Virus record (IMG/VR): IMGVR_UViG_2571042636_000008
Span: 1-43,701 of that record
Origin: a virus
Lineage: Duplodnaviria > Heunggongvirae > Uroviricota > Caudoviricetes
DNA: 43,701 nucleotides
Strand: one strand, 5' to 3'
Shown: positions 1,303 to 17,596 of the stretch, one piece after another
Numbering within the stretch: position 1 is the first letter of the stretch
Layout: every line of letters starts with the position of its first letter
Notes under the pieces: model-generated
Database searches by the model: none
Seen by the model: the letters and a program-made list of their open reading frames with translations, nothing else
Told to the model about the DNA's origin: nothing
Position numbers and translations under genes: made by a program

Positions 1303-1548
1303 TCATACCGCCCGATCACCCAATGGTTGCTTTTGCGCCTGAATCCATGCGTCTACCGCTTTGCGGTTGTACATGCATTCGCTGGTTGGCTTTGGGTCAC
1401 CTTCAGGGGAAACGTGCTTATACTCACGCCCAAGCAGCCAGGATGATTTGCGGGCCCGTGTAATGGTTCCACGTTTCATCCCTGTGACTGCCATCAGCAA
1501 GTCCTCTGAAACCCATTCGTTTGGCTCGATCTGGATTATTGTCTGCAT
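1303..1548 (-). CDS. Excisionase-like small DNA-binding protein
   Basis: 81-aa basic ORF immediately upstream of int on same strand, classic xis position; sequence family not verified. Confidence 0.55.
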   Translation of the reverse strand: MQTIIQIEPNEWVSEDLLMAVTGMKRGTITRARKSSWLLGREYKHVSPEGDPKPTSECMYNRKAVDAWIQAQKQPLGDRAV

Positions 1549-1707
1549 GCATCACCTCTGCCGCACTCTTTAACTGATATAGAATTCCCAGCTACTGGCG
1601 ACGGAATTCATAACCTTAATCGCCATTTCAGCCGTTTCCCTGCTGTCGTAACACTGGAAATACATCTCCTGCCCAGTACGTTTAAGCTTCATCATTACCC
1701 ACATACA

Positions 1708-1926
1708 TCACCTCAGGTGCTTACCACGTTCTTCAAACTCTTCTTGGCAATCAGCGCAGCGCTGACAACCCGCCACCAGTTCCCGGCGCCGCTCGGGTAT
1801 CTCTTCCCCGCAGTCGCGGCAGTGAGTAGCCGAAACCGCCGCATGATTGATGCGCATGTTCTGGATGGTCATTTCCAGCCGGCGCTCTGCCAGCTCGTTG
1901 GCCTGATCGATGATTTCTGCGCTCAT
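1708..1926 (-). CDS. TraR/DksA-family C4 zinc-finger protein
   Basis: 72 aa with CxxC-(17)-CxxC (CRDCGEEIPERRRELVAGCQRCADC) as in phage TraR-like proteins. Confidence 0.7.
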   Translation of the reverse strand: MSAEIIDQANELAERRLEMTIQNMRINHAAVSATHCRDCGEEIPERRRELVAGCQRCADCQEEFEERGKHLR

Positions 1927-2597
1927 GCTGCACCGCCTTCAACGCGCTTAAACGAAATGACCCAAACCCAGGGATTAGCTTTCCAGCTTTCGTCGCCGTA
2001 GATAGATGACCACAACTCAGCAAAGTTGTCGTATGGCGTCATAACCTCGCCGCCGCTATCCGGGTCAGAGTATGTTGGCCGCCACCCAGTAAGCTCCATG
2101 CCTTCAGCTTGAGCATCTTCTTGGCTAATAGCGTTCAGCCGCTCAACGCGCACATCAGTGATTTCCAGCAGAATGCGGCTGGCCCAGCGCGGCATGTGGA
2201 TTGATGGTCGCCAGCAGCAATGCAGTTCATCATCTGCATCGTAAAACTCTGGCGCTGGCACTCCATCAGCCTTGTAAACGCAGAATTCGGGCTTCTCAAA
2301 CGGAGTGGGGTCTTTGCAATAGCTATCCATTAGGTCGTAGTCGAACAGTGGACCCTGAAACGTCTCGCGTACCCAGATACGGTCGCCTGGTTGTCCGTAA
2401 TGGCAAAAATGAGCAGTGGTGCTGCCATGCTTGTGTCTCAGAGATGATTTCCAGCCAATTGCTTCTGGGTTAGGAAAAATGCAACGCTCGATATCGTCTG
2501 CTGGTTGTGGTGCCATAATCCGCCTGGTCTGTGTCTTCCGACCGTCGAGAATGGCCCGCACCATCTCCCCGTTAAAAATCATTCCGCGTTCTTTCAT
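1923..2597 (-). CDS. Hypothetical phage protein, possible ASCH/PUA-like N-terminus
   Basis: 224-aa ORF, 4-nt overlap with neighbours; N-terminal MVRAILDGRKTQTRR resembles the GxKxxExR motif of ASCH domains (weak, from memory). Confidence 0.55.
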   Translation of the reverse strand: MKERGMIFNGEMVRAILDGRKTQTRRIMAPQPADDIERCIFPNPEAIGWKSSLRHKHGSTTAHFCHYGQPGDRIWVRETFQGPLFDYDLMDSYCKDPTPFEKPEFCVYKADGVPAPEFYDADDELHCCWRPSIHMPRWASRILLEITDVRVERLNAISQEDAQAEGMELTGWRPTYSDPDSGGEVMTPYDNFAELWSSIYGDESWKANPWVWVISFKRVEGGAA

Positions 2598-2815
2598 GAT
2601 TCCACTCCATAGCGGCCGCTAAGCCGCCCAATAACACTGACAAATTTCACCAGACTGACACCCATCGGCTTTACCTTCTCGTAGTGCTTGCGAAGGATGG
2701 GGGGGCATACAGCGTTCCACTTCGGTTTAGGCTTTACGTTCATCGCTTTGGTTATCTCTTCTGCGCAGCGACGAGCCTGGGCGCGGAGAGCGTTTTCTTT
2801 TTCTTCTGGCGTCAT
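2594..2815 (-). CDS. Hypothetical small protein
   Basis: 73-aa ORF translationally coupled (4-nt overlaps) on both sides. Confidence 0.45.
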   Translation of the reverse strand: MTPEEKENALRAQARRCAEEITKAMNVKPKPKWNAVCPPILRKHYEKVKPMGVSLVKFVSVIGRLSGRYGVES

Positions 2816-3339
2816 GCAGCCTCCAGATTCCCGATCCGCTTTAACTCAGCCAGCGATACAGTCGTGATGATGTGTCGCGGGGTGATGTACGGACGCCAGA
2901 TAAACAGAAGCGAGCCTTTGGGGTTGCTCCGGCGCTTTCCTGTAACGGATGCCGGAACAAACTGAACACGGCCGCCGGTTATGAGTCTGAGTTCATCAGC
3001 TGATTGCATGGCTGAAATAAACCAGCCGGTAGAAATGTCAGCCGGTAACAACATCACTACGGCCTGAGACTGCGCCCGGGATTGCTCGGCTGCCTTTTCC
3101 ACCCACGGCCCAATATCGGAATAGGGCGGGTTACACCATATTGCCCCGTATGACGTCCATTCACTGTTCAGCGAGTCATCCAGCTCAGTGAGGTAGTGAG
3201 CGCATAGCGCATTACTCTCAGAGGCTGCAGCATCCAGCCAGAAGCCAAACTCGCGGTCGAGCGCATTGAAAATTTCAATCGGTGTTTGCCAGTAGTCACG
3301 TTCATTTTTTGGAGTTTTCGACCCGCCGAAATCAGTCAT
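2812..3339 (-). CDS. Phage DNA N6-adenine methyltransferase (Dam-like)
   Basis: DYWQTP...CNPPYS (NPPY catalytic motif); start moved to internal ATG at 3339 preceded by AGAGGTG RBS; the track ORF extends to 3378. Confidence 0.8.
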   Translation of the reverse strand: MTDFGGSKTPKNERDYWQTPIEIFNALDREFGFWLDAAASESNALCAHYLTELDDSLNSEWTSYGAIWCNPPYSDIGPWVEKAAEQSRAQSQAVVMLLPADISTGWFISAMQSADELRLITGGRVQFVPASVTGKRRSNPKGSLLFIWRPYITPRHIITTVSLAELKRIGNLEAA

Positions 3340-3367
3340 TGCGCACCTCTTTTCGTGTCTGCCTTTC

Positions 3368-3991
3368 TCATGCGGCATGGTCGTGGTTTTTTATGCTGGA
3401 AATTTCTTTCTCCAGCTCTTCCAGGAACTTTTTCACTTCGGACTCAATCTCATTTGCCAGTGCTTCGTCGAAGTGAATGCGCTTTTTGAAATAGGCGAGG
3501 TCTGGTGGTAGACGATCGTCGAAACTAACGAAATCACACCATTTACGCCCTGTGCACATCATCTGAGCGTGCATCTGCAGCAGGTACTGGCGTTTTGGCT
3601 CGCCAGTTTTTAAGGTCTCAAGATGAGTCCAGGTGTTGGGGCACTTAATTTCGATAAGCCCATCACCATTAACAAGCCCATCAGGGCTTGCTGCAAATCC
3701 TGGTATAGATGGGTGATCGATAAGCCCCACTTCAGTGATTTCGGCATCGAACTCATTCAGCGCATACATTTCGCGCGCTACCGGCTCGAGTTCTGTTCCG
3801 CGCATCATTGCGGCGTTGGAGAAACCTTCTTCAAGCTTCCCGGTGAGGCGCTGGCAAATCAGCTCGGCCATGTAGTTCTGTCGGCTTGCGGCATAGCCAG
3901 ACTTGGTTCTGGCCATGACGTCAGCAAGGCGGCTGGCTGTGACTTTTCCGCAGCGAGCGGCAAACCATTCTGGGGTGCGTTGTTCCATCAT
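3368..3991 (-). CDS. YqaJ-like viral recombination exonuclease
   Basis: RTPEWF...GKVTASR...EIKCP motifs typical of the YqaJ/lambda-Exo-like family; adjacent to RecT. Confidence 0.8.
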   Translation of the reverse strand: MMEQRTPEWFAARCGKVTASRLADVMARTKSGYAASRQNYMAELICQRLTGKLEEGFSNAAMMRGTELEPVAREMYALNEFDAEITEVGLIDHPSIPGFAASPDGLVNGDGLIEIKCPNTWTHLETLKTGEPKRQYLLQMHAQMMCTGRKWCDFVSFDDRLPPDLAYFKKRIHFDEALANEIESEVKKFLEELEKEISSIKNHDHAA

Positions 3992-4734
3992 TTATCCTCC
4001 GGCGCTGCGGCATCGACAGGTTCTGCGTTGTCGACTGCAAGGCTCATGTCATACATGCGACGCTTCTCAACCGCGCCGATAACCTGTTTCTCTTCTGCGC
4101 TTAACGCCACCCAGAATTCCTGATACTTAACAGTTCCAAGGCGTGCGGCAGACTCGCCTTTTGCGATCAGTTCCGGGCGGCGATCATCCGATTCATGCCC
4201 TACATGAACCTCTGTCGCACTCCCTTCAATGACACGTTCGGCTTCGTCCTGATCGAAGATGCCAGCAAACCCAAATGCGAGACGCGCACACTGGATCAGC
4301 GTCTTGTGACGAAGCATACGGGTAGGGTGGGACTGCCATGGCTGAGTGTTGCGTTTGCACTCTCCCATGTACTCAGTAACGATGGTCGGGTGTGTGCGGT
4401 CTTTCCGGTATATCTTGCAGGTACACGCGCCTTCTTCCTTGTCGTAGGCAAACTCCATTCCATCAAACTGAGGATGTTCGTTGATGATTCGAGCCCAGCC
4501 GTCAACGCCGACCACTGGAACAATTCCGCCTTTATCCGGGAATGCATAAATCTCCTTCGTCCACGGATTTAGTCCGTACTGGTTGGCGACGATCAGCAGT
4601 GCCGTGAACTGCTCATCAGTGACATTCCCACCCTTAAATGCTGTATTTTTCAGAGTGTTCATCAGGTCAGTTCCGGCATCCATGCCGAGGCGGGAGGCAA
4701 GCTTCCCGGCCATTGTAGAAAGTGCTGTGCTCAT
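3988..4734 (-). CDS. recT: RecT-family single-strand annealing recombinase
   Basis: RecT-like sequence; start chosen at internal ATG (4734) with GAGGGG RBS; the track ORF extends to 4785. Confidence 0.85.
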   Translation of the reverse strand: MSTALSTMAGKLASRLGMDAGTDLMNTLKNTAFKGGNVTDEQFTALLIVANQYGLNPWTKEIYAFPDKGGIVPVVGVDGWARIINEHPQFDGMEFAYDKEEGACTCKIYRKDRTHPTIVTEYMGECKRNTQPWQSHPTRMLRHKTLIQCARLAFGFAGIFDQDEAERVIEGSATEVHVGHESDDRRPELIAKGESAARLGTVKYQEFWVALSAEEKQVIGAVEKRRMYDMSLAVDNAEPVDAAAPEDK

Positions 4735-4750
4735 AGAATTCCCCTCAAAG

Positions 4751-5041
4751 TTAAAACGGGCAGCCGGTGCGGTGGTCCCAGTCATATTCCGCCTGGGCGT
4801 AAGCTACTGCCGAGATGAGATCGTTATATGCCTCGCCAGCTGCATCGCTGCGGAGGCCTTCGTATGGGCTTTTGTCCATCGGCACAGAGAAGCGGAACAG
4901 GCCTGACGGCTCTTTCGGCAGGGCGTCGATAATTTCCTGCGCCCGATCGTCAATCCACTTTTGCTTCTCTTCGGTTAGCGACTGTTCAGCCCATTTCCTT
5001 TCTTCGATAGCGTCGTATGCGCGGTATGCGTTCATAAGCAC
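4751..5041 (-). CDS. Hypothetical protein
   Basis: 96-aa ORF in the early-left operon between the coiled-coil gene and recT. Confidence 0.5.
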   Translation of the reverse strand: MLMNAYRAYDAIEERKWAEQSLTEEKQKWIDDRAQEIIDALPKEPSGLFRFSVPMDKSPYEGLRSDAAGEAYNDLISAVAYAQAEYDWDHRTGCPF

Positions 5042-5042
5042 C

Positions 5043-6014
5043 TCAGTAACTGATACCGGTATGGGGAATGCAGCCGTCTTTAACCGCTGTAAGCACCTCG
5101 ATAGCCTGATCCCGAGTAAGGCTGGTATTGGCCAGAAGAGCTTTGACGATTTCAGTGCCTACAGCCTTGCGGTGCTTAACGTCGGCTTCGCGGCGAGCCT
5201 GCTCATCGGCTTTACGTTTCTCCTCAGCCAGGCGGGCCTGTTCGCGTTGCTCTGCCTCGCGGCGGATGCGATCGGCTTCTTCCTGAGCTTTGCGGCGCTC
5301 CGCTTCGATAGCGGCCTGCTTGTCAGCCTCAGCTTTCTTCTCGGCTGCAATGCGATCTCGCTCTGCCTGCTCAGCTTGTGCTTTCAACACAGCTTCGCGA
5401 TGCGCCGCTTCTTCACGTTCACGCTGTGCGCGCTGCTCAACTTCTCGGGCTGCTGCGGCGGCTGCCATTCGCTTAATTTCTTCTTCATGGGCAATGCGCT
5501 GGCGCTCAGCCTCAGCTGCTTTATCTGCCTGCTCTCGGTCGAAAGCGTCATTCATCAGCAGGGCCATTTCGTGGTCAGACTCAATCCGAGCTGCCAGCTG
5601 CCGATCGAACTCTTCATTCATGGCCAGTGCTTCGACGTGAAGGGCGTTCATGGCTTCTTCGGCCTTAATGCGTTCCTGCTCCGCCTCCCATTCGGTCAAC
5701 GGGCGACGCACTTCATCTTTCAGTGCATCGAGACGCTCACGGACAACGCGGCGGCTTTCATCAATCTGCTTTGGCAGCGCCTTCAGCTCAGCGACCAGGG
5801 CTTTACCTGCGTTGTCGATGTAGGTTTTAGAGCGCGCGACCTTGTGAGCCATGGATGCGATAGCATCGCGGCCTTTTTTGGTGGTCACGTCCGGCACCAG
5901 ACTGCGAGCCTCTTTTTCGATCGCTTCGATAAGCGGATCGAGTTGGTCGTTATTGGTGAAAACCGCCATCGCGTTCTTTTTCTCGATGACGACTAAATCC
6001 ATTATTTCGCTCAT
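5043..6014 (-). CDS. Coiled-coil protein, Ala/Glu/Arg-rich, unknown function
   Basis: 323 aa; long low-complexity charged helical region (AEAERQRIAHEEEIKRMAAAAAAREVEQRAQREREEAAHREA...); antisense ORFs in this region are GC-skew artefacts. Confidence 0.6.
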   Translation of the reverse strand: MSEIMDLVVIEKKNAMAVFTNNDQLDPLIEAIEKEARSLVPDVTTKKGRDAIASMAHKVARSKTYIDNAGKALVAELKALPKQIDESRRVVRERLDALKDEVRRPLTEWEAEQERIKAEEAMNALHVEALAMNEEFDRQLAARIESDHEMALLMNDAFDREQADKAAEAERQRIAHEEEIKRMAAAAAAREVEQRAQREREEAAHREAVLKAQAEQAERDRIAAEKKAEADKQAAIEAERRKAQEEADRIRREAEQREQARLAEEKRKADEQARREADVKHRKAVGTEIVKALLANTSLTRDQAIEVLTAVKDGCIPHTGISY

Positions 6015-6101
6015 GGTTTCCCCTGAAATTTGGTTGTAAGAATCCCGGCACCGTATTGGCTGCCTGATAGCTCAGTTAAATTCGTGCGCTGATATGCGCG
6101 G

Positions 6102-6296
6102 TTAATGCGTCCCGGCTGGAACCAGATTCGGCAGCAGGTCGCGTGCCTCAAATGCTTTGCGAATGTGGCGCAGGTTGCCCTGTGGCTCGAACCAGAAGGT
6201 TTCTTTCAGGTAGTCACGTGAAACCTTCCAGGCGGCGCCAGTTTTAGCGTTGCGCATCATCACGGCGCGTCCGTTGTTAGGAATTGAGTTAGCCAT
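6102..6296 (-). CDS. Hypothetical small protein
   Basis: 64-aa ORF in early-left operon. Confidence 0.4.
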   Translation of the reverse strand: MANSIPNNGRAVMMRNAKTGAAWKVSRDYLKETFWFEPQGNLRHIRKAFEARDLLPNLVPAGTH

Positions 6297-6395
6297 TGAA
6301 CACCCCCGTAGCGTGCAGAATTTTGATAATCACCGCTGTCCAGATAACGCCGCAGATCAGCAGGCAGTAAATCAGTGAACGAATGCCTTGTTTGC

Positions 6396-6626
6396 TCATA
6401 CTTTCTCCCGCGCTTTCAACATTGCATCAGCCATCAGGTAAGAAAGCTCAGCAATAATGAAATCATCTTCACTTCTCGCAGGGTGCTCAATGCCCGCTGG
6501 ATAACCTGCCAGCCAGCCCTGCATCGCTTTTGCTGCAAAGTAATCACGAACAGTCAAACCTTCGTACCCTTGCGTTGGATATGCAGGGCCGCCATTGTTT
6601 TCTTTGCTCATTTTCCACCCCAGCAC
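6396..6626 (-). CDS. Hypothetical small protein (first gene of the leftward early operon)
   Basis: 76-aa ORF immediately downstream (leftward) of the AT-rich OL region; not Arg-rich so not an obvious N-type antiterminator. Confidence 0.45.
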   Translation of the reverse strand: MLGWKMSKENNGGPAYPTQGYEGLTVRDYFAAKAMQGWLAGYPAGIEHPARSEDDFIIAELSYLMADAMLKAREKV

Positions 6627-6779
6627 GGATAGCTAACTGCGATAACAGCAACCAAAAACGGAACGACCTTTAACCAAAAATTACGCCATGCAGGCTTGTC
6701 TTCTTCGCGGATCATCTCTTAACCTTTGCCTTATCGCGGCTAACGGGACGTTTTGACTTCACCCCGGCGTTGCCGGTGT

Positions 6780-8789: not shown

Positions 8790-9644
8790 ATGGCAAATAC
8801 TGCCGAAGTAATCAATTTCCCTGTGCCTGTCGTGGCACTACAGGAGCTGCGCGTGGCAGATCTCGACGATGGGTTTACGCGCATCGCCAATGAGCTCCTT
8901 GAAGCTGTCATGCGTGCGGGTCTGTCGCAGCATCAGCTTTTGGTGTTCATGGCTGTCATGCGCAAAACATACGGCTTCAACAAGAAATCTGACTGGGTCA
9001 GTAACGAGCAGCTCTCGGAGCTGACCGGCATTCTCCCGCATAAGTGCTCAGCTGCAAAAAGCGTCCTGGTTAAGCGGGGGATATTAACTCAAACCGGTCG
9101 TGTTATCGGGATTAATAAAACGGTCAGCGAATGGTCATCTTTACCCGTAAAAGGTAAAGAAAAAAAACCTTACCTGAAAAAGGTAACATTACCCGAATCA
9201 GGTAAGAAAAGTTTACCCGAATCAGGTAACGCCTATTACCCGAATCAGGTAAACACAAAAGACAAACATACAAAAGACAATAAAGACAATATTAATAACC
9301 CCCCTAAATCCCCCCGGGCGGTTTCGTTCGATGCGTTAGCTGTTCAGTTGCCTGACTGGCTTTCTGCAGAAATCTGGTCGTCATGGGTGGCATATCGTCG
9401 CGACCTGAAAAAGCCGATCAAGTCTCAGCAGACGGTCACCCAGGCTATCAACCTGCTGGACCGCTGCAGACTGAACGGTTACGCGCCCGAAGAAATTATC
9501 AACCGCAGCATCGCCAATGGCTGGCAAGGCCTGTTTGAGCCAAATGGTGCCAAGCCTCAACCAAGTCAACAGGTGCGAGTTGCCGAAAATTTCGCAGGGA
9601 AGGATTACGGGCAGACTGAAATCCCATCATGGGCGAGGGACTGA
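8790..9644 (+). CDS. Replication initiator, lambda O-like
   Basis: 284 aa in O position; in-gene iteron array followed by an A-rich stretch as in lambda ori. Confidence 0.75.
   Translation: MANTAEVINFPVPVVALQELRVADLDDGFTRIANELLEAVMRAGLSQHQLLVFMAVMRKTYGFNKKSDWVSNEQLSELTGILPHKCSAAKSVLVKRGILTQTGRVIGINKTVSEWSSLPVKGKEKKPYLKKVTLPESGKKSLPESGNAYYPNQVNTKDKHTKDNKDNINNPPKSPRAVSFDALAVQLPDWLSAEIWSSWVAYRRDLKKPIKSQQTVTQAINLLDRCRLNGYAPEEIINRSIANGWQGLFEPNGAKPQPSQQVRVAENFAGKDYGQTEIPSWARD
9141..9252. repeat. Replication-origin iterons (five ~17-bp TTACCCGAATCAGGTAA-type repeats) inside the O gene
   Basis: Copies at 9141-9157, 9170-9186, 9189-9205, 9213-9229, 9236-9252, followed by an A-rich tract 9253-9300. 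Confidence 0.75.
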
Positions 9645-9646
9645 TC

Positions 9647-10498
9647 ATGGAACTGGAAGAAAAAATCACTGCCATTGAGCGGATGCTTGATCAGCTGAGT
9701 AAGCCACCGGAAGACATCCCGAATTGCGAAGTGGTTATCGAGCGCGTCTGTTGCGAAAAGCATGGCGAATATGAGCAGCGCAAGCGGATCCTGACCAGCA
9801 GCATCATCAATCTGCCATCACCGCCGACACGCTGCCCGGGCTGCCTGGAAGACGAACTGAATTTTCTGAGGGATGAAAAGGTTCGCTGGGATAAGCGAGT
9901 ACGCCAGCAAACTGCAGAAAGGCTGCTTCGACAGCTGGACATACCAGAGCGCTTCTCCACGTGCACACTGGACAGCTACAAGCCTGTTGGGAAGGATTCT
10001 GAGCGAGCATTACGGGTCTGCCAGGCCTACGCATCGAAATGGACTGATCGCCTCCAGCAGGGCGGTGGGTTGGTTATGTGTGGCAAGCCTGGTACCGGTA
10101 AAAACCACCTTGCGCTGGCCATTGCCCGTCATGTGATTGAGCACCACCAAAGCTCAGTCATTTTCACGACGGCGCTGAAGATTGCCCGGGAGTTTAAATC
10201 GACCTGGTCAAAAACAGCCACGCGCACTGAGGATGAGGTGATCCGCTACTTCACGAAGCCAGACCTTCTGATTGTCGATGAGGTTGGTGTGCAGTTTGGC
10301 AGCGAAGCCGAGAAGATGATCATGTTTGAAATCATCAACACCCGCTACGAGCGCCTGAAGCCGACGATCCTGATCAGCAACCTGCCGAAGGATGAGCTGA
10401 CGCAGTTTATCGGCGAGCGCGTCATCGACCGCATGAACGACGGCGGCGGCTGCACGATTTCGTTTACCTGGGACAGCTATCGGGAGAACCGGTCATGA
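9647..10498 (+). CDS. DnaC/IstB-like AAA+ helicase loader
   Basis: Walker A GKPGTGKNHLA, Walker B LLIVDEVG; start at ATG 9647 (GAGGGA RBS) just after O stop. Confidence 0.85.
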   Translation: MELEEKITAIERMLDQLSKPPEDIPNCEVVIERVCCEKHGEYEQRKRILTSSIINLPSPPTRCPGCLEDELNFLRDEKVRWDKRVRQQTAERLLRQLDIPERFSTCTLDSYKPVGKDSERALRVCQAYASKWTDRLQQGGGLVMCGKPGTGKNHLALAIARHVIEHHQSSVIFTTALKIAREFKSTWSKTATRTEDEVIRYFTKPDLLIVDEVGVQFGSEAEKMIMFEIINTRYERLKPTILISNLPKDELTQFIGERVIDRMNDGGGCTISFTWDSYRENRS

Positions 10499-10788
10499 CA
10501 GGAAAAGACGCAATTCTGAACTACCTGAAAACGAATAAAACCTGCAGCTCTCCAGATGTCGCCGCGGCTTCCGGGATGACGCATACCTGCATCAACCAGG
10601 CTGCCAATATCCTGGCAAAGCAGGGGGTACTGGTAGCGGAAGCTCGGGTGTGGCGGACGGTTTACTACCGGCTGGCCACTGAAGAAGAAATTTCAGGCAG
10701 GAAGAGCACCAATCAGATTTTCAATGAGTGTCGGCAAAGCCCGGCGATGAAACGGGTACTGGCTGTTTACGGGAGAACATCAGCATGA
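10495..10788 (+). CDS. Hypothetical protein (nin-like region)
   Basis: 97-aa ORF, ATGA overlap with upstream gene. Confidence 0.5.
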   Translation: MTGKDAILNYLKTNKTCSSPDVAAASGMTHTCINQAANILAKQGVLVAEARVWRTVYYRLATEEEISGRKSTNQIFNECRQSPAMKRVLAVYGRTSA

Positions 10789-11231
10789 CTATCACATTAC
10801 AGGCAGTAAACGAGCTCATCGCCTCCCTTGAGAGCGCAGGCGAGCCGTCGATCAGAGAACAGAAGTTCCTGAAGCTGGCGAAAGAGTTCCGCATTTGCAG
10901 CGCTTCACTGGATGCCGCCATAAAAACCGGGAATATGCTGGCAGACCAAAATGCTCAGCTGGCTGCGGAGAATGTGGCGCTGAAGAATTTCTGCAAAAAC
11001 GCTGCATTTGATGCCGACTATGAAGCCGAACTTGGCATGGAAAGGGGCGGGTTTACTGACGCTCTCAACAATATCGAAACCCCCGCCACCGATCGCATCA
11101 TGGCCGAAGCCGAGGCGCGCGGAGTTGAGAAGGCCATCGCTCACCTGGATAAAAAGTTCAGCAATATCGGCGTGCAGATCATGAATTTGCAGTGGCTGGC
11201 AGACTCGCTGCGCGAGGGGGCCGGGAAATGA
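10785..11231 (+). CDS. Hypothetical protein
   Basis: Start set at ATG 10785 (MTITLQAV...), 4-nt overlap with previous stop. Confidence 0.5.
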   Translation: MTITLQAVNELIASLESAGEPSIREQKFLKLAKEFRICSASLDAAIKTGNMLADQNAQLAAENVALKNFCKNAAFDADYEAELGMERGGFTDALNNIETPATDRIMAEAEARGVEKAIAHLDKKFSNIGVQIMNLQWLADSLREGAGK

Positions 11232-11491
11232 GCATCGCTACTTATCTCAATACCGGTTTAGCCATTCTTGGATGGGCATACATCATGGTTAAAACAGGCC
11301 AGTGGATTACCAAAAATGCTCTGAGGCAGTGGGACAAGCGTCGTAAGGAATCTCGCCGCCAGAAAGCTGTGAATGAGTTTTATGACGCCTTTGAGCTTAA
11401 CAGCCTGGAACCTGGCTCTACCGTTCGCCTGGCCACTAAAGGCGACCTGACAATCATGATGTTCCGCAGCGAGGGAAAGGCCAATGACTGA
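11228..11491 (+). CDS. Hypothetical small membrane protein
   Basis: Start at ATG 11228 (MSIATYLNTGLAILGWAYIMV...), one hydrophobic helix; ATGA overlap. Confidence 0.45.
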   Translation: MSIATYLNTGLAILGWAYIMVKTGQWITKNALRQWDKRRKESRRQKAVNEFYDAFELNSLEPGSTVRLATKGDLTIMMFRSEGKAND

Positions 11492-11990
11492 TATCACCGA
11501 ACTGGCGCAGCGTATGAAGACTGCTGCTGAGAAACTTGACGCAGACCAATGGCAGACACGCAAGGGTTTTAGCGGTATTGAGGTAATCGTCAAAGGTAGC
11601 CTTGAAAAGGGACATGGCTGTGTGTCTTTCCAGCCTGTTGCTGCCGACATGGCTGACACAAAAACAGCAAGAGCGATTGCGTTGTTTAGTCCTGCCAACG
11701 TCCTCGCGCTGGTAGAGGCGCTGGAGAAGGCGCAGAAGCAAACGACTGAAAGCGAAAACCGCGTTCGCAAGCAGAATCGCCACATCTGTGAGCTGTTCGA
11801 CGATAACACAGCACTGCGCCAGCGCATCGCCGAGCTGGAGTCCCGCACCGTGAAGCTGCCAAAGCTCAAAATGCTCGAAGACTATCTCGCCGAGGTAGCC
11901 ATTGAAGAGAGAAAACAGATTTTGGTCGGCGTGAAACTGGAGTTTCATCGTGCGCTGGCCGCCGCTGGCATCAAGGTGGAGGCTGAGTAG
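11484..11990 (+). CDS. Ead/Ea22-like protein
   Basis: 168 aa, GAGGGAAAGG RBS; resembles Ead/Ea22-like family from memory. Confidence 0.55.
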   Translation: MTDITELAQRMKTAAEKLDADQWQTRKGFSGIEVIVKGSLEKGHGCVSFQPVAADMADTKTARAIALFSPANVLALVEALEKAQKQTTESENRVRKQNRHICELFDDNTALRQRIAELESRTVKLPKLKMLEDYLAEVAIEERKQILVGVKLEFHRALAAAGIKVEAE

Positions 11991-12338
11991 ATGAAACCTG
12001 CAAAATTTACACCCATAGTCGTCGCGCCAGTAACTTTTGAAACAGTACGTGAGCGACTTTCGTACCTGGAAGGCTTGAATGCCAAAGGTGCTGGCACCGC
12101 AGTAAAGTCGCAGCAATTTGAAATAGCGTGTCTGCGTGAATTGCTGGTACGCCTGGAGTCCCGCGCCGTCACCGTGAAGCTGCCAGACATCATGCCACCA
12201 GAAGCGGCACCGGCTCATTACTGGGGCTCCGGTGAGTCAATGGCTTATGCGGATGGATACAACAAATCGGCTGCGGATTTAAAGACCTCTTTTGCTCAGG
12301 CCTGCTCTTCTGCTGGCGTTAACGTGGAGTTTGAATAA
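11991..12338 (+). CDS. Hypothetical protein sharing a short module with the preceding Ead/Ea22-like gene
   Basis: AAGGTGGAGG RBS; shares LESR(A)VTVKLP segment and about 27 bp of near-identical DNA with 11484..11990. Confidence 0.5.
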   Translation: MKPAKFTPIVVAPVTFETVRERLSYLEGLNAKGAGTAVKSQQFEIACLRELLVRLESRAVTVKLPDIMPPEAAPAHYWGSGESMAYADGYNKSAADLKTSFAQACSSAGVNVEFE

Positions 12339-12802
12339 TGGTCATCTCACCAATAACGCTGAAAGCGGCGCAGGAATTTATCGCCCAGCATCACCGGCAT
12401 AACAAACCGCCGCGCGGCCACAAATTCAGTATCGGGCTGAAAAACGCCGCGGGCGAACTAATCGGCGTTGCGACGGCCGGTCGCCCGGTAGCTCGTCACT
12501 TTGACGACGGCCTAACTCTGGAGGTAAATCGCACCTGCACCACTGGCGAGCGTAACGCTAACAGCGCTCTGTACGGAGCAATCTGGCGCGCTGCCCGCGC
12601 AATGGGCTATCTCCGCTGCATTACATACACCCAGGCTGATGAGTCCGGCGCGTCACTGCGTGCTGCTGGTTTCGTGCGCGTCAAAGAGTTACCGGCTCGC
12701 CCTGGCTGGGCTGCGTCAAGCCTGGCATTGAAAGATAAGCGTGACCCTGTTGGTAATGGCGGTGTGCCTCGTGTTTTGTGGGAAATCAGGAGAATGAAAT
12801 GA
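12338..12802 (+). CDS. Hypothetical protein, possibly GNAT-fold acetyltransferase-like
   Basis: 154 aa; strand/helix pattern with WRAARAMGY reminiscent of GNAT motif A (weak, unverified). Confidence 0.5.
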   Translation: MVISPITLKAAQEFIAQHHRHNKPPRGHKFSIGLKNAAGELIGVATAGRPVARHFDDGLTLEVNRTCTTGERNANSALYGAIWRAARAMGYLRCITYTQADESGASLRAAGFVRVKELPARPGWAASSLALKDKRDPVGNGGVPRVLWEIRRMK

Positions 12803-13578
12803 ATCACACACTGAGCGATTCACAGTTGGAAGAAATGATTAAATCGGCTGTTAATTCATTCGGCCCGCTACCGCCTGACGAAAAATTCTCACTACTTATT
12901 TCTGCGCTGCGTGAGCTACAGGAACGCCGCAAGGCCGCAATGGAGAGCAAGCCGGTGATACTTTACCGACAGGTAAATCCGGTGAACGGAATGAAGACGT
13001 ATTGGGCTGAGTTAGACCCTGAAGAATTTAGACATTTAAAAAAATACGCTGATGAAAATGCTGAATTCATGACGCTCTATCGCCACTCGCAGCCAGCGCC
13101 GGAATATCCGGAAACACTGCCATGCCCCGTATTGCTGGAGCCAGGGTTGCGCTTTGGTAAAGGCATTAAAACCAGCACCATGCTTGCCGCACTGTCGCGC
13201 AGGGCCGTATACGAATCAGACTTGGCGGCACTATCACCGGAAGAGAGGGTGGAGTTTCAGGCGGGAATTGAGGACGTAAAAGCGCTGATTGCGCAGCCAG
13301 TGCCGGTAGCTCCTGTTTGCACCTGCCCCAGCGGCGATGGTTCGCTGCGCTGGCCTTGTCCGGTACATCCTGGCAGATCTCCGGAAAATCCGGGTTGTTG
13401 GTGCCTCACATGCCGTCCTGTGGCCATTAACGATATGCGCTTTGTGGTGTGCCCTGATTGCGGGAATAAGAGATGCCCACGGGCAAATGACCATAGAAAC
13501 GCCTGCACGGGAAGTAATGAGACCGGCCAGGAAGGAAGCGCATATCCGGCCGCACCGCAGGAGGTGAAGGGTGAGTGA
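12799..13578 (+). CDS. Hypothetical protein with C-terminal Cys-rich (putative zinc-binding) domain
   Basis: Start ATG 12799 with AGGAG RBS; C-terminus CTCPSGDGSLRWPCPVHP...CWCLTCRP...CPDCGNKRCP. Confidence 0.55.
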   Translation: MNHTLSDSQLEEMIKSAVNSFGPLPPDEKFSLLISALRELQERRKAAMESKPVILYRQVNPVNGMKTYWAELDPEEFRHLKKYADENAEFMTLYRHSQPAPEYPETLPCPVLLEPGLRFGKGIKTSTMLAALSRRAVYESDLAALSPEERVEFQAGIEDVKALIAQPVPVAPVCTCPSGDGSLRWPCPVHPGRSPENPGCWCLTCRPVAINDMRFVVCPDCGNKRCPRANDHRNACTGSNETGQEGSAYPAAPQEVKGE

Positions 13579-13831
13579 CGTCAAAAGCAAAATCATGCAG
13601 GTAATGACAGAGGGTGCGGACCAGCAGAGACAATGGGCTCAGGGTGAATATCCCTTTCGCATGGCTACCTGGAATATCCGCTGCGCGATGGAGCGCAAAT
13701 TCCCCGGGATAGAGTGGAAGAGCGCAGACCTGCGCAAAGAACTGATCGAACTGGCGAAAGAGGGGCTGGTATCCAAATGCCCCCACGAGAGCCGCATTGG
13801 TCAAGCCGTCTGGCGTCTGGAGATGAAGTGA
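13571..13831 (+). CDS. Hypothetical protein
   Basis: 86-aa ORF with GTG start preceded by GGAGGTGAAGG. Confidence 0.45.
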   Translation: MSDVKSKIMQVMTEGADQQRQWAQGEYPFRMATWNIRCAMERKFPGIEWKSADLRKELIELAKEGLVSKCPHESRIGQAVWRLEMK

Positions 13832-14061
13832 TGAATTCACGCCAACGATACCGAATGAAATACCCTGGTTGGTTTGTAGAGGCTGTAAAGGATTTGCTGA
13901 GCCGGAGAATGCTGGAAGATATTGCATATGGCGTGGTTTGCTTACTGTTCCTCATCACGTTACCAGTGTCGCTGCCGATTATCACGGCAATCAGGATGTT
14001 GGTCACCAAGCGCAAACTGCGTAAAGAGTACGGACACGATGAGTTGATGAGGGACGACTGA
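13831..14061 (+). CDS. Hypothetical small membrane protein
   Basis: ATG 13831 overlapping previous stop; hydrophobic segment VVCLLFLITLPVSLPIITAI. Confidence 0.45.
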   Translation: MNSRQRYRMKYPGWFVEAVKDLLSRRMLEDIAYGVVCLLFLITLPVSLPIITAIRMLVTKRKLRKEYGHDELMRDD

Positions 14062-14117
14062 TGCCTAAATCCCCCGCAGAACGCAAAGCTGCGCACCCAT
14101 CCAGTTGATGATATATA

Positions 14118-14144
14118 ATCCCCTCCACAGCAGAGGGGATTTTT
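14118..14144 (+). terminator. Hairpin + T-tract, candidate internal terminator in the nin-like region
   Basis: ATCCCCTC-cacagca-GAGGGGAT followed by TTTTAT, ending at the next start codon. Confidence 0.45.
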
Positions 14145-14402
14145 ATGTCACAGTGGAACATCGCAGCCAAATCGAAAGGCGAGCAGGACAAGGTCAATGT
14201 TGACCTCGCAGCCTCCGGCGTCGCGTACAAAGAGCGGCTTAACCAACCAGTGATAGCGGAGCAGGTGGCCAGAGAGCAGCCTGAGCATCTGCGCGAGTAT
14301 TTCATGGAGCGCGTCCGCTACTACCGCGAGCAGAGCATCCAGCTACCCCGCGCATCCGATCCGCGCTATCTGGAAATGGCTGAGCAGAACGCCAAGAAAT
14401 AG
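14145..14402 (+). CDS. Hypothetical protein
   Basis: 85-aa ORF. Confidence 0.45.
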
Positions 14403-14508: not shown

Positions 14509-15105
14509 ATGGCGCAAACACTGCAATTTGAGAAGAGTTATCAAAACGTACTGATTCCCGCAGAGCCGGGAACCAGCGAATACCTGCAACTTATCCCCGT
14601 AGGGCAGCTGCTTTGCGGTGAGTTCCGCAAGCCCCGGAATTACGCATTCCACAAAAAGTTCTTCAAGCTTCTGACTCTCGGGTATCACTACTGGACGCCT
14701 TCCGGTGGTCTCATTGAGCCCGCGGAGCGTACCCTCATATCCGGTTTTATCGACTTTCTCTCATCCGACCTCGATCAGCGCGCTGCACTCCAGAACGCCG
14801 CGGAGATGTATCTCTCCTCGGTCGGTATATCCCGTTCCCGCGATATGGCGCTGCTGAAACACTTCGAATCCTTCCGCGAGTGGGCAACCATTCAGGCTGG
14901 CTTTTATGACGAATACCAGATGCCTGACGGCAGCCGTCGTCGTGTCGCAAAGTCGATCTCCTTCGCCAGCATGGACGACAGCCAGTTTAACGGCGTCTAC
15001 AAATCAGTGCTGAATGTGCTTTGGAACTACATTCTGCGTCGCAAGTTCCACTCGCCGGCTGAGGCTGAAAACGCCGCCAGTCAGCTGCTGAGCTTTGCGG
15101 GGTGA
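14509..15105 (+). CDS. nin-region protein (possibly DUF1367-like)
   Basis: 198-aa ORF; family assignment from memory only. Confidence 0.5.
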   Translation: MAQTLQFEKSYQNVLIPAEPGTSEYLQLIPVGQLLCGEFRKPRNYAFHKKFFKLLTLGYHYWTPSGGLIEPAERTLISGFIDFLSSDLDQRAALQNAAEMYLSSVGISRSRDMALLKHFESFREWATIQAGFYDEYQMPDGSRRRVAKSISFASMDDSQFNGVYKSVLNVLWNYILRRKFHSPAEAENAASQLLSFAG

Positions 15106-15313: not shown

Positions 15314-15604
15314 ATGGCCAATCTTCGTAAAGCAGCTCGCGGTCGTGAATGCCAGGTTCGCATCCCGGGCGTCTGCAACGGCAACCCTGAAACCACGGTA
15401 TTGGCCCATATCCGCATTGCTGGATTGTGCGGGACGGGGATTAAGCCGCCTGATCTGCTCGCCGCTATCGCCTGTTCATCCTGTCACGATGAAATAGACC
15501 GCCGCACGCGCCTGGTAGATGCGGAGTATGCGAAGGAGTGCGCGCTGGAGGGAATGGCCAGAACGCAGGTTATCTGGATGAAAGAGGGGTTGATAAAAGC
15601 ATGA
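15314..15604 (+). CDS. YbcO-like (DUF1364) putative nuclease
   Basis: [32 protein letters not shown]...[11 protein letters not shown] closely matches remembered DLP12 YbcO. Confidence 0.7.
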
Positions 15605-16902: not shown

Positions 16903-17347
16903 ATGCCTGCGATCCGGTCAGGGCTCTTGGGTAGAGACGTGCTGCACGACACGTCAAAGCCCTTCCGCGCAGAGCCCTGAACCAGATTGAAGTTACTCAG
17001 CAATAAGAAAACTGCATGTCATCATTTGCTTATATCTTATTGACCAGAAAATTAACATGTTGTTAATCTATTCGTGTGGTGAATCCCCCTATGCGGAGGG
17101 GCGACCAGTCACTTACAGTGATCTGTAAATGCAGCGCGGGCCATGTCGACTGGGACATGCTCACCGGGAGGCACCCGGCACCATAATGCAATGCTACATA
17201 AGCTATTTGATAGTGGGGTTGCCGTTTCGGCTTCTCCAGCTATGTTTAAAAGGTAGTAACGGAAAACGAGCGCTCTCCTGGTAAATCGGAAGCTCGGACT
17301 ATTAGGTGCGCCTCGAACCGTTGAAGAATCAGTATTTCCTACCTTCT

Positions 17348-17374
17348 GCCCGCCCCTCTGAGCGGGCTTTTTTT
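17348..17374 (+). terminator. Rho-independent terminator
   Basis: GCCCGC-ccctctga-GCGGGC followed by TTTTTTT. Confidence 0.55.
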
Positions 17375-17407
17375 CGCCTAATTCAGGCAAAACCATAAAG
17401 CATTAAG

Positions 17408-17432
17408 GGCTGCGCTATTTCGCGGCCTTTTT
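17408..17432 (+). terminator. Rho-independent terminator immediately upstream of tRNA-Asn
   Basis: GGCTGCG-ctattt-CGCGGCC followed by TTTTT. Confidence 0.45.
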
Positions 17433-17439
17433 CATTTCA

Positions 17440-17514
17440 GGGTCAGAAGCACAGCGGTTGTGCGTTCGGCTGTTAACCGAATGGTCGAAGGTTCGAATCC
17501 TTCCTGTCCCGCCA
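17440..17514 (+). tRNA. tRNA-Asn (anticodon GTT), phage-encoded
   Basis: Hand-folded cloverleaf: D stem GCAC/GTGC, anticodon stem TTCGG/CCGAA with loop CTGTTAA, T arm GAAGG-TTCGAAT-CCTTC, 3' CCA; one T:T mismatch in acceptor stem and A at position 8. Confidence 0.6.
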
Positions 17515-17519
17515 AATTA

Positions 17520-17596
17520 GCGCCATTAGCTCAACCGGAGAGAGCAATAGCCTTCTAAGCTATCGGTTTCAGGTTCGAGTCCTGAATGGTGCACCA
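17520..17596 (+). tRNA. tRNA-Arg (anticodon TCT)
   Basis: Hand-folded cloverleaf: acceptor GCGCCAT/ATGGTGC, D stem GCTC/GAGC, anticodon loop CTTCTAA, T arm TCAGG-TTCGAGT-CCTGA, CCA; resembles E. coli argU from memory. Confidence 0.8.

What the first reader, a model, noticed from the sequence alone, without database searches (positions are those of the whole stretch)
12338..13578. Coupled pair in the nin-like region: GNAT-like protein and Cys-rich protein
Two overlapping (ATGA) genes of unknown function: one with a GNAT-reminiscent fold pattern, one with a C-terminal multi-Cys cluster likely to bind zinc. Such pairs in nin regions are candidates for host-takeover or anti-defence functions.
Basis: inference. 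Interest (0 to 1): 0.45.

Follow-up and report, generated by a model that had tools for sequence, protein, structure and literature searches.

The report
Mini Mom-like enzyme beside mosaic zinc protein
Two overlapping early genes of a Klebsiella-type lambdoid prophage are real, but they are not a dedicated pair: the first is a compact, untested relative of phage Mu's DNA-modifying Mom enzyme, and the second is a patchwork protein that happens to end in a small zinc-binding module.

Summary
ORF1 (12338-12802, 154 aa) and ORF2 (12799-13578, 259 aa) overlap by ATGA in a nin-like region between replication genes and NinB/Q-type genes.

ORF2 is a mosaic. Only its first ~46 residues travel with XF1762 genes. 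Its cysteine-rich end is absent from all 111 other XF1762 loci examined, and occurs as a free-standing 66-68 aa protein in Pseudomonas and Stenotrophomonas phages.

ATGA coupling is not specific to this pair. Ten consecutive gene junctions here overlap or abut.

Most likely ORF1 is an early-expressed nucleic-acid-modifying transferase with an anti-restriction role. This is inferred from Mom homology, DNA-methylase neighbours and rare methylase fusions; no experimental data were found. It is a new member of a known but uncharacterised family, of moderate interest.

The parts
11991..12338 (+). Upstream 115-aa ORF. Its TAA overlaps the ORF1 ATG by 1 nt. It has no family hit. Its C-terminus ends ...AGVNVEFE, like the Ead/Ea22-like ORF before it (...AGIKVEAE).
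   Evidence: Its C-terminal half (residues ~48-115) recurs upstream of the closest XF1762 relatives (L012, L013, L017, L088).
12338..12802 (+). ORF1, 154 aa, pI 10.5. It is an XF1762-family protein: a compact GNAT-fold enzyme related to phage Mu Mom. Conserved H19, E62, R65, N73, S76 and G104 align to Mom H58, E108, R111, N121, S124 and G156.
12699..12769 (+). The beta6-beta7 loop of ORF1 (residues ~121-144). It has two short helices, low model confidence and a conserved W124. It occupies the same topological position as Mom's essential HTH-like insertion (residues 175-209) but is shorter (~26 aa).
   Evidence: Secondary structure and per-block pLDDT of 56-63. W124 is conserved in 45 of 48 sequences, Mom W181 in 20 of 30. 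Properties of the Mom insertion come from PMC13219725.
12799..12936 (+). ORF2 leader, residues 1-~46 (MNHTLSDSQLEEMIKSAVNS.GPLPPDEKF..ISALRELQ). This is the only part of ORF2 that recurs directly after XF1762 genes, mostly with the same ATGA overlap.
   Evidence: 17 of 80 viral loci share it and then diverge into C-termini of 52-375 aa. Also L142 and L143.
12937..13074 (+). The rest of ORF2 module A (residues ~47-92), which varies among relatives.
   Evidence: Coverage profile of 120 relatives.
13075..13314 (+). ORF2 module B (residues 93-172). It matches phrog_2960, function unknown, and is shared with many Klebsiella prophage proteins that have different ends.
   Evidence: phrog_2960 5e-17 over residues 100-161. 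Module sharing is shown.
13315..13389 (+). ORF2 module C1 (residues 173-197): a short Cys/His knuckle, CxCPSGDGSLRWPCPVHPG. It occurs on its own in other mosaic proteins.
   Evidence: P0125, P0129 and P0131 carry it separated from C2. Weak phrog_3956 hit.
13390..13548 (+). ORF2 module C2 (residues 198-250): CWCxxC...CPDCGNKRCPRANDHRNACTGSNExGQEGSAYP. Seven Cys and one His are invariant. It looks like a zinc ribbon and is an autonomous domain.
   Evidence: Alignments. Stand-alone 66-68 aa proteins occur in Pseudomonas and Stenotrophomonas phages, and it forms the C-terminus of Gordonia GodonK gp56. No Pfam or PHROG family matches; there are only weak zinc-ribbon hits.
13571..13831 (+). The next gene (86 aa, phrog_2814, function unknown). 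It overlaps the end of ORF2 by 8 nt, so the chain of coupled genes continues.

Best explanation
These are two ordinary, translationally coupled early genes in the nin-like accessory region of a Klebsiella-type lambdoid prophage. They were brought together by module shuffling and do not form a two-component system.

ORF1 is a member of the very large XF1762 family. It is a minimal GNAT-fold transferase specifically related to phage Mu Mom, the Gly-tRNA-dependent adenine-modifying anti-restriction enzyme.

My best reading is as follows. ORF1 is made early from the pR-type transcript. It transfers an acyl or aminoacyl group onto a nucleic acid, most likely a base in replicating phage DNA. That would blunt host restriction.
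- It uses the Mom-type active-site residues: H19 on alpha1, the E62-x-N-R65 motif on beta4, and N73-x-x-S76 at the start of alpha3.
- It uses its strongly basic surface (pI 10.5).
- It lacks Mom's HTH-like DNA clamp and shows no conserved counterpart of D149, R151 or Y159. Its target, sequence context or donor is therefore probably not the same as Mom's.

ORF2 is a patchwork early protein:
- a leader that acts as a conserved recombination joint;
- a module matching phrog_2960;
- a small CCCH knuckle;
- an autonomous C-terminal zinc-ribbon-like domain that probably binds two zinc ions and acts as a binding module on its own.

What is shown: gene structure, family membership, fold, motif conservation, mosaicism and lack of co-conservation. 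What is inferred: the substrate, the donor, the anti-restriction role and zinc binding.
For: Identity of ORF1:
- NF045478 scores 198.8 bits against a cutoff of 50.
- It shares PHROG 1384 with Mu Mom.
- Many relatives carry precomputed Pfam Mom hits.
- Profile-profile comparison with the Mom family gives E 4.3e-4 and places R65 on R111 and S76 on S124.
- The AF2 model is confident (pLDDT 90.7).
- Mom 8bv8_B is rank 1 of 350,542 chains by Foldseek (E 4.8e-8, TMq 0.75).
- Conservation: R65 in 47 of 48 sequences, S76 in 45 of 48, H19 in 48 of 48.
- R111 and S124 are essential in Mom. R111 is Mom-specific rather than general to GNATs (PMC13219725; PMC7261163).

Link to nucleic acids:
- N6/N4 DNA methylase genes neighbour XF1762 in Amycolatopsis and Bacillota loci and in a Mycobacterium prophage.
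- HNH, Prim-Pol, AEP and PD-(D/E)XK genes are also neighbours.
- Rare fusions join the domain to a C5 DNA methylase, to a D12 N6-adenine methylase, and to polyvalent-protein domains YodL and LPD28.
- An 877-aa ART-PolyVal-like phage protein holds a domain 36% identical to ORF1.

Not a pair:
- 0 of 80 viral and 0 of 31 genomic XF1762 loci hold module C.
- At least eight unrelated gene types follow XF1762.
- XF1762 sits in a pL ea region, after lysis genes, or beside a methylase in other phages.

Mosaic ORF2:
- Its relatives share different sub-segments and end in DUF551, DUF3850 or Lar-like domains instead.
- C2 stands alone in other phages.
Against: - I found no experimental data for any XF1762-family protein.
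- ORF1 scores 24.6 bits on Pfam Mom, below the gathering score of 27.1.
- hhalign probability is only 34%.
- The HTH-like insertion, whose deletion abolishes Mom activity, is absent.
- The positions I aligned to D149, R151 and Y159 are not conserved. The loop alignment there is ambiguous.
- Mom is a late, tightly regulated and toxic function. This gene sits in an early operon with no sign of special control.
- Methylase neighbours could simply reflect the early DNA-metabolism module of phages.
- All four fusion proteins examined are singletons at 90% identity and could be gene-calling artefacts.
- Zinc binding by ORF2 rests only on the Cys/His pattern and on sub-threshold zinc-ribbon hits.
Confidence: 0.45

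Rival explanations
1. ORF1 is a conventional acetyl-CoA-dependent N-acetyltransferase. It would acetylate a host or phage protein, or a small molecule, for host takeover or for inactivating a defence protein, in the manner of GNAT-type anti-CRISPRs. It would have nothing to do with nucleic-acid modification.
Against: By inspection, the beta4-alpha3 loop (C67-T-T-G-E-R-N-A-N-S76) does not fit the canonical Q/R-x-x-G-x-G/A pyrophosphate loop. It carries the Mom-type N-x-x-S instead. The near-invariant R65 matches R111, which is Mom-specific and not a general GNAT residue. PHROGs place it in the same family as Mom. Fusions and neighbourhoods point to DNA enzymes.
Confidence: 0.25
2. ORF1 acts on tRNA rather than DNA. 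It could acylate charged tRNA as a growth-arresting toxin (TacT/AtaT-like). Alternatively it could use aminoacyl-tRNA as donor for a target that is not DNA.
For: Mom itself binds Gly-tRNA(Gly) as co-substrate, and several GNATs use or modify tRNA (PMC13219725). ORF1 is very basic (pI 10.5). One relative gives a weak hit to the aminoacyl-tRNA-dependent LPG synthase C-terminal domain (E 0.13).
Confidence: 0.15
3. ORF1 and ORF2 do work together. The cysteine-rich protein would serve as a zinc-finger regulator or DNA-targeting subunit of the Mom-like enzyme, analogous to the Com zinc finger that controls mom in Mu.
For: The two genes overlap by ATGA. The exact pair is kept in many Klebsiella assemblies. 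The first ~46 residues of ORF2 recur after XF1762 genes. Mu has a zinc-finger gene, com, overlapping mom.
Against: The cysteine-rich module is absent from all 111 other XF1762 loci examined. It occurs alone or on unrelated proteins in phages where the locus examined showed no annotated XF1762 gene nearby. There is no meaningful similarity to Com: E 0.013 over 20 residues in a one-to-one comparison, and the gene order is reversed. All neighbouring genes are coupled in the same way. The Klebsiella copies are near-identical prophages and so carry little independent information.
Confidence: 0.07

Closest known systems
Phage Mu Mom (Pfam PF25680; PDB 8bv8), the Gly-tRNA(Gly)-dependent GNAT that converts adenine in dsDNA to N6-carbamoylmethyladenine and blocks restriction
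   Same: Same PHROG (1384). Best structural match by two methods. Shared GNAT core. Shared signature residues: H58/H19, E108/E62, R111/R65, N121/N73, S124/S76, G156/G104, and possibly W181/W124. Both are basic, phage-borne proteins, and both lack a canonical CoA P-loop.
   Different: ORF1 is 154 aa against 231-241 aa. The essential HTH-like insertion (175-209) is replaced by a ~26-residue loop modelled with low confidence. There is no basic C-terminal tail. No conserved counterpart of Y59, D149, R151 or Y159 was found. ORF1 falls below the Pfam gathering score. It is expressed from an early nin, ea or replication-module position rather than as a late, Com/C/Dam-controlled gene. Its activity is untested.
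XF1762 family (NCBIfam NF045478), annotated 'Mom-like DNA modification protein' in PHROGs and for Pectobacterium phage ZF40 gp36, and 'acetyltransferase' in Mycobacterium prophages
   Same: ORF1 is a full-length, high-scoring member (198.8 bits; 98% identical to a K. pneumoniae entry). It has the same ~150-aa architecture and conserved motifs.
   Different: Nothing distinguishes it from other members. The family has no demonstrated function.
Ead/Ea22-, Eaa- and DUF551-type mosaic proteins of lambdoid ea and nin regions
   Same: ORF2 shares exchangeable segments with Klebsiella prophage proteins annotated Eaa1 or DUF551. It shows the same style of conserved leader followed by shuffled modules. 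Ead/Ea22-like ORFs lie just upstream.
   Different: ORF2 itself has no Ead_Ea22 or DUF551 Pfam hit. Here the variable C-terminal slot is filled by a zinc-ribbon-like module.
Small zinc-ribbon proteins (Pfam Zn_ribbon_19; NOB1 and TFIIS zinc ribbons)
   Same: A CxxC ... CPxCG two-knuckle spacing and small size.
   Different: All matches are below threshold (E 0.015 to 1). The C2 module has an extra C-x5-H-x3-C element and a conserved TGSNExGQxGSxY tail that has no match in any of the libraries searched.

Membership tests
GNAT superfamily | The beta1-alpha1(-alpha2)-beta2-beta3-beta4-alpha3-beta5-alpha4-beta6-beta7 fold | tested here: met
GNAT superfamily | The acyl-CoA pyrophosphate-binding loop Q/R-x-x-G-x-G/A between beta4 and alpha3 | tested here: not met
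   The loop reads C67-T-T-G-E-R-N-A-N-S76. The family consensus is CTDGxxNANS. This was judged by inspection only, and CoA binding was not tested.
XF1762 family (NCBIfam NF045478) | HMM score above the curated cutoff over the full model | tested here: met
   198.8 bits against a cutoff of 50, covering model positions 2-133 of 143.
Mom family (Pfam PF25680) | HMM score above the gathering threshold | tested here: not met
   24.6 bits against 27.1, covering only profile positions 3-112 of 202. Mu Mom itself scores 253 bits.
Mom family (Pfam PF25680) | Catalytic residues R111 and S124, plus H58 | tested here: met
   hhalign places R65 on R111, S76 on S124 and H19 on H58. These are conserved in 47, 45 and 48 of 48 XF1762 sequences.
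Mom family (Pfam PF25680) | Residues D149, R151 and Y159, which are required for activity | tested here: inconclusive
   The positions I aligned to them are variable (D101), S/P (103) and L107. E102 is near-invariant and may correspond to E150. The alignment of the beta5-alpha4 loop is ambiguous: Mom is 2 residues longer there.
Mom family (Pfam PF25680) | The HTH-like insertion (~175-209) between beta6 and beta7, essential for momylation | tested here: not met
   ORF1 has only ~26 residues there, with two short helices at pLDDT 56-63. The requirement comes from PMC13219725.
Mom family (Pfam PF25680) | Formation of N6-carbamoylmethyladenine in DNA from Gly-tRNA(Gly) | not testable with these tools
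   This needs nucleoside LC-MS/MS and an in vitro assay.
Type II GNAT toxins (TacT/AtaT) | An adjacent cognate antitoxin gene and close structural similarity to TacT or AtaT | tested here: not met
   The neighbours are mosaic Ead/Ea22-like and Eaa-like ORFs. There is no PADLOC hit. TacT and AtaT do not appear in the listed top structural hits.
Mu Com-Mom regulatory pair | A Com-like zinc finger encoded with, and conserved alongside, the Mom-like gene | tested here: not met
   ORF2 against Com gives E 0.013 over 20 residues. The C2 module is absent from 111 other XF1762 loci.
DUF551 / Ead_Ea22 mosaic proteins (ORF2) | A Pfam PF04448 or PF13935 domain | tested here: not met
   ORF2 has no such hit. 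Relatives that share modules A and B carry PF04448, PF12961 or PF14354 at their ends.
Zinc ribbon (ORF2 module C2) | Two CxxC-type knuckles that bind zinc | tested here: inconclusive
   Invariant C-x-C-x2-C ... C-P-x-C plus C-x5-H-x3-C. HMM hits are sub-threshold only: Zn_ribbon_19 at E 0.015-0.06 and the NOB1 ribbon at E 0.085. Metal content was not testable.

The most novel reading that the evidence does not exclude
The XF1762 family (more than 3,200 clusters at 50% identity, spread through temperate phages of Proteobacteria, Actinomycetota, Bacillota and Chloroflexota) may be a second, minimal class of Mom-type enzymes. Such enzymes would install an acyl or aminoacyl-derived mark on DNA or RNA, perhaps using charged tRNA as Mom does. 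They would do so early in infection and without Mom's HTH clamp. That would be a widespread, unrecognised nucleic-acid hypermodification and anti-restriction route in lambdoid and other prophages.
Probability: 0.2. Interest if true: 0.7.

Novelty: new member of a known kind. Interest (0 to 1): 0.4.

Why it matters
Mom's chemistry, glycine taken from charged tRNA and placed on adenine in DNA, was only worked out in 2023-2026 and is described for Mu-type Mom proteins. The XF1762 family keeps the two residues that work calls essential, yet is a third shorter. It appears far more common: 3,241 clusters at 50% identity. It is present in 172 of 5,426 complete E. coli genomes and in many Klebsiella assemblies.

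If it modifies nucleic acids, many clinical-strain prophages would carry an unnoticed epigenetic or anti-restriction function. That would bear on phage therapy host range and on the reading of sequencing-based modification signals. If it does not, it shows how the Mom active site was built on a simpler scaffold.

The zinc module at the end of ORF2 is a small, widely conserved phage domain that currently has no family in Pfam or PHROGs. The negative result is also useful: ATGA overlap in these regions is not evidence of a functional pair.

Tried and rejected
- Single-sequence AF2 of ORF1 gave pLDDT 36 and was unusable. It used one of the two structure jobs, so ORF2 could not be modelled.
- phmmer of ORF1 against PDB sequences found nothing meaningful, and neither did a narrow 20-sequence profile. 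The link to Mom needed PHROGs, profile-profile comparison and structure.
- BLASTP of ORF1 against Mu Mom was not significant.
- hhalign against the single Mom sequence was weak (E 0.038). It improved to 4.3e-4 with a Mom-family profile.
- PADLOC gave no hits for ORF1, ORF2 or their two neighbours.
- ORF2 has no PDB sequence relative and no Pfam or NCBIfam family.
- The C2 module has no PHROG family, even when stand-alone homologues are used as queries.
- Megablast of the region against complete E. coli genomes covered only 16%, so this is not an E. coli element.
A1 was used instead.
- A scan for Mu Mom relatives in viral contigs returned only 85-100% identical copies.
- My first crude gene caller lost the XF1762 ORF in high-GC loci. 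It was replaced by a GC3-filtered version, which is still approximate.
- Literature searches for XF1762, 'Mom-like', and acetyltransferases in nin regions found no functional study of this family.
- The Com-like regulator idea was considered and rejected.
- No + strand promoter-like site was found inside the block.
Full report
**What is there**

The window carries a lambdoid (pro)phage. Its closest database proteins come from Klebsiella pneumoniae. Only 16% of the local DNA matches any complete E. coli genome.

The genes upstream of the finding are:
- a replication O-like gene (8790-9644);
- a DnaC-like loader (9629-10498);
- a Ren-like gene (10495-10788);
- several small ORFs, one of them Ead/Ea22-like (11484-11990).

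The genes downstream are:
- a DNA polymerase III theta homologue (14145-14402);
- DUF1367 (14509-15105);
- YbcO (15314-15604);
- RusA, YlcG and Q in identical copies elsewhere.

So 'nin-like region' is correct.

ORF1 runs 12338-12802 (154 aa). ORF2 runs 12799-13578 (259 aa). ATGA lies at 12799-12802, and each start has a good Shine-Dalgarno sequence.

The overlap is real but not special. The ten junctions between the eleven genes from 8790 to 14061 overlap by 16, 4, 4, 4, 8, 0, 1, 4, 8 and 1 nt. No + strand promoter-like site lies inside the block. The first terminator-like hairpin followed by an intergenic gap is at 14117-14141.

**ORF1**

ORF1 is a full-length member of NCBIfam NF045478, 'XF1762 family protein' (3.5e-59, 198.8 bits, cutoff 50). 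It matches PHROG 1384, 'Mom-like DNA modification protein', at 1.2e-39. Mu Mom itself hits the same PHROG at 7.8e-84.

Against Pfam's Mom model ORF1 scores 24.6 bits, just under the gathering score of 27.1, and covers only the first half of the profile.

The family is very large:
- 4,858 clusters at 90% identity with E of 0.001 or less;
- 3,241 clusters at 50% identity;
- matches in 172 of 5,426 complete E. coli genomes, annotated 'XF1762 family protein' and often next to 'ead/Ea22-like family protein'.

A 48-sequence alignment gave a confident AlphaFold2 model (pLDDT 90.7, pTM 0.84) with the GNAT order of strands and helices. The structure comparisons gave:
- Foldseek: Mu Mom S124A (8bv8_B) is the best of 350,542 PDB chains (E 4.8e-8, TMq 0.75).

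The specific affinity to Mom rests on sequence motifs more than on fold.

**How Mom-like is it?**

Profile-profile comparison of the XF1762 alignment with a 30-sequence Mom-family alignment gives E 4.3e-4 and probability 34%. It aligns the following residues (conservation counts):

| ORF1 residue | Conserved in XF1762 set | Mom residue | Conserved in Mom set |
|---|---|---|---|
| H19 | 48/48 | H58 | 29/30 |
| E62 | 47/48 | E108 | 30/30 |
| R65 | 47/48 | R111 | 30/30 |
| N73 | 43/48 | N121 | 30/30 |
| S76 | 45/48 | S124 | 30/30 |
| G104 | 48/48 | G156 | 30/30 |

[quoted passage not shown] R111 is conserved among Mom homologues but not across GNATs in general (PMC7261163). Its counterpart in XF1762 is therefore a real family signature.

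Other features are missing:
- Mom's Y59 corresponds to R20.
- I found no conserved counterpart for D149, R151 or Y159. That loop differs in length by two residues and its alignment is ambiguous.
- The HTH-like insertion (residues ~175-209), whose deletion abolishes momylation, is replaced by a ~26-residue loop. This loop has two short helices and low model confidence. It does hold a conserved tryptophan (W124, 45/48) that may correspond to Mom W181.

ORF1 is as basic as Mom (pI 10.5 against 10.0). By inspection it lacks the canonical CoA pyrophosphate loop.

I therefore file ORF1 as an XF1762-family member and a relative of Mom, not as a Mom-family member.

**Context of the family elsewhere**

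XF1762 genes sit in different places in different phages:
- in the pL 'ea' region after an Ead/Ea22-like gene in the P22-like phage Kapi1;
- after the lysis genes and just before a theta gene in Pectobacterium phage ZF40;
- between a DNA methylase and an HNH endonuclease in a Mycobacterium abscessus prophage.

A scan of one genome per species found 31 loci. They span Enterobacterales, Beta- and Gammaproteobacteria, Amycolatopsis, Nocardiopsis, Streptomyces, Kitasatospora, Clostridia and Dehalococcoidia.

Of ten neighbours tested, six hit DNA-metabolism families: N6/N4 DNA methylase (twice), HNH, Prim-Pol, an archaeo-eukaryotic primase domain and a PD-(D/E)XK nuclease. Four had no hit.

Among longer family representatives, the Mom-like domain is fused to:
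- a C5 cytosine DNA methylase;
- a D12 N6-adenine methylase;
- YodL and LPD28 polyvalent-protein domains;
- DUF6884.

A viral structure search found an 877-aa 'ART-PolyVal-like' protein with a domain 36% identical to ORF1.

These observations point to DNA and inter-genome conflict, but they are soft. The four fusions I examined are singletons at 90% identity. Phage early regions are rich in DNA enzymes anyway.

**ORF2**

ORF2 has no Pfam or NCBIfam family. Its 4,384 relatives are almost all Klebsiella prophage proteins that share only parts of it. They end in DUF551, DUF3850, Lar-like or other segments. Mapping the matches gives these modules:
- A: residues 1-92, whose first ~46 residues form a conserved leader;
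- B: residues 93-172, matching phrog_2960;
- C1: residues 173-197, CxCPSGDGSLRWPCPVHPG;
- C2: residues 198-250.

C2 reads CWCxxC-x12-CPDCGNKRCPRANDHRNACTGSNExGQEGSAYP. Seven Cys and one His are invariant from Klebsiella to Gordonia phages. It also occurs:
- as a free-standing 68-aa protein just before NinG in Pseudomonas phages;
- as a 66-aa protein in Stenotrophomonas phages;
- as the C-terminus of Gordonia GodonK gp56.

No Pfam or PHROG family covers it. The only matches are sub-threshold zinc-ribbon hits. Zinc binding is therefore likely, probably two ions, but it is inferred.

**Is it a pair?**

No. In 80 viral contigs with an XF1762 relative (77-97% identity), none has module C within 4 kb. 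The same is true of the 31 genomic loci.

The gene immediately downstream falls into at least eight unrelated types. Seventeen of the 80 loci share ORF2's leader, mostly with the same ATGA junction. They then diverge into unrelated C-termini of 52-375 aa.

Likewise, the ORFs upstream of XF1762 share only a C-terminal '...AG(I/V)xVE(A/F)E' ending.

The conserved sequences are thus the gene boundaries. I read them as recombination joints in a shuffling accessory region. This is an inference from the known mosaicism of lambdoid phages.

The exact ORF1-ORF2 arrangement is common in Klebsiella assemblies. Those copies are near-identical prophages. ORF2 shows no meaningful similarity to Mu's Com zinc finger.

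**Mechanism and rivals**

The most likely reading (0.45) is that ORF1 is an early-expressed, Mom-type transferase acting on nucleic acid, probably phage DNA, with an anti-restriction role. It would use the H19, E62-x-N-R65 and N73-x-x-S76 site. The donor is unknown: aminoacyl-tRNA as in Mom, or an acyl-CoA.

The rivals are:
- an ordinary acetyl-CoA-dependent protein or small-molecule acetyltransferase (0.25);
- a tRNA-directed enzyme (0.15);
- a true ORF1-ORF2 partnership (0.07).

I found no experimental work on the family.

**Verdict**

ORF1 is a new member of a known, named but uncharacterised family. ORF2 is a mosaic carrying an uncatalogued zinc module.

Interest is moderate (0.4). Standard annotation already names ORF1. 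The family's size, its retention of Mom's essential residues and the very recent solution of Mom's chemistry make it a tractable and worthwhile experimental target.

Noticed in passing
window 13390-13548 (ORF2 residues 198-250); L135:2426-2632; L136:2459-2659; L137:1255-1608: A small Cys7-His1 domain (C-x-C-x2-C ... CPxCGNKRCPxAxxHxxxCTGSNExGQxGSxY) is conserved from Klebsiella, Enterobacter and Aeromonas phages to Pseudomonas, Stenotrophomonas, Xanthomonas, Gordonia and Arthrobacter phages. It occurs free-standing (66-68 aa) or as a C-terminal module. It has no Pfam or PHROG family.
   Followed up: partly
P0331, P0269, P0322, P0341 (representatives); BFVD A0A6J5LU57: XF1762/Mom-like domains appear fused to a C5 DNA methylase, a D12 N6-adenine methylase, YodL+LPD28 polyvalent-protein domains and DUF6884. 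One also sits inside an 877-aa ART-PolyVal-like phage protein. The four fusions examined are singletons at 90% identity, so artefacts are not excluded.
   Followed up: partly
window 11484-12338 and 12799-12936: Gene-boundary sequences are more conserved than gene bodies. The two ORFs before ORF1 end ...AGIKVEAE and ...AGVNVEFE. The first ~46 residues of ORF2 recur in front of unrelated C-termini. This looks like recombination joints for module exchange.
   Followed up: partly
window 14117-14402: A terminator-like hairpin (AATCCCCTC...GAGGGGATT plus a T run, 14117-14141) lies directly before a DNA polymerase III theta (HolE/HOT-like) gene at 14145-14402. Pectobacterium phage ZF40 also has a theta gene right after its XF1762 gene (L138:3977-4231).
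   Followed up: no
window 17047-17596: Between the Q-like antiterminator and the lysis genes lie an STnc100 sRNA match (17047-17241, 79.7 bits), tRNA-Asn(GTT) at 17440-17514 and tRNA-Arg(TCT) at 17520-17596.
   Followed up: no
L150-L152 (Amycolatopsis), about 1500-6650: In several Amycolatopsis genomes the XF1762 homologue appears as a longer 269-aa ORF. It is flanked upstream by a protein with a DNA-methylase motif (PF01555, 28.8 bits) and downstream by a large ORF of about 660 aa resembling a serine recombinase. This may be a small integrative element. The gene calls came from a crude GC3-filtered caller.
   Followed up: no
window 11991-12338 and 13831-14061: The 115-aa ORF upstream of ORF1 and the 76-aa ORF two genes downstream have no hit in Pfam or PHROGs.
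   Followed up: no
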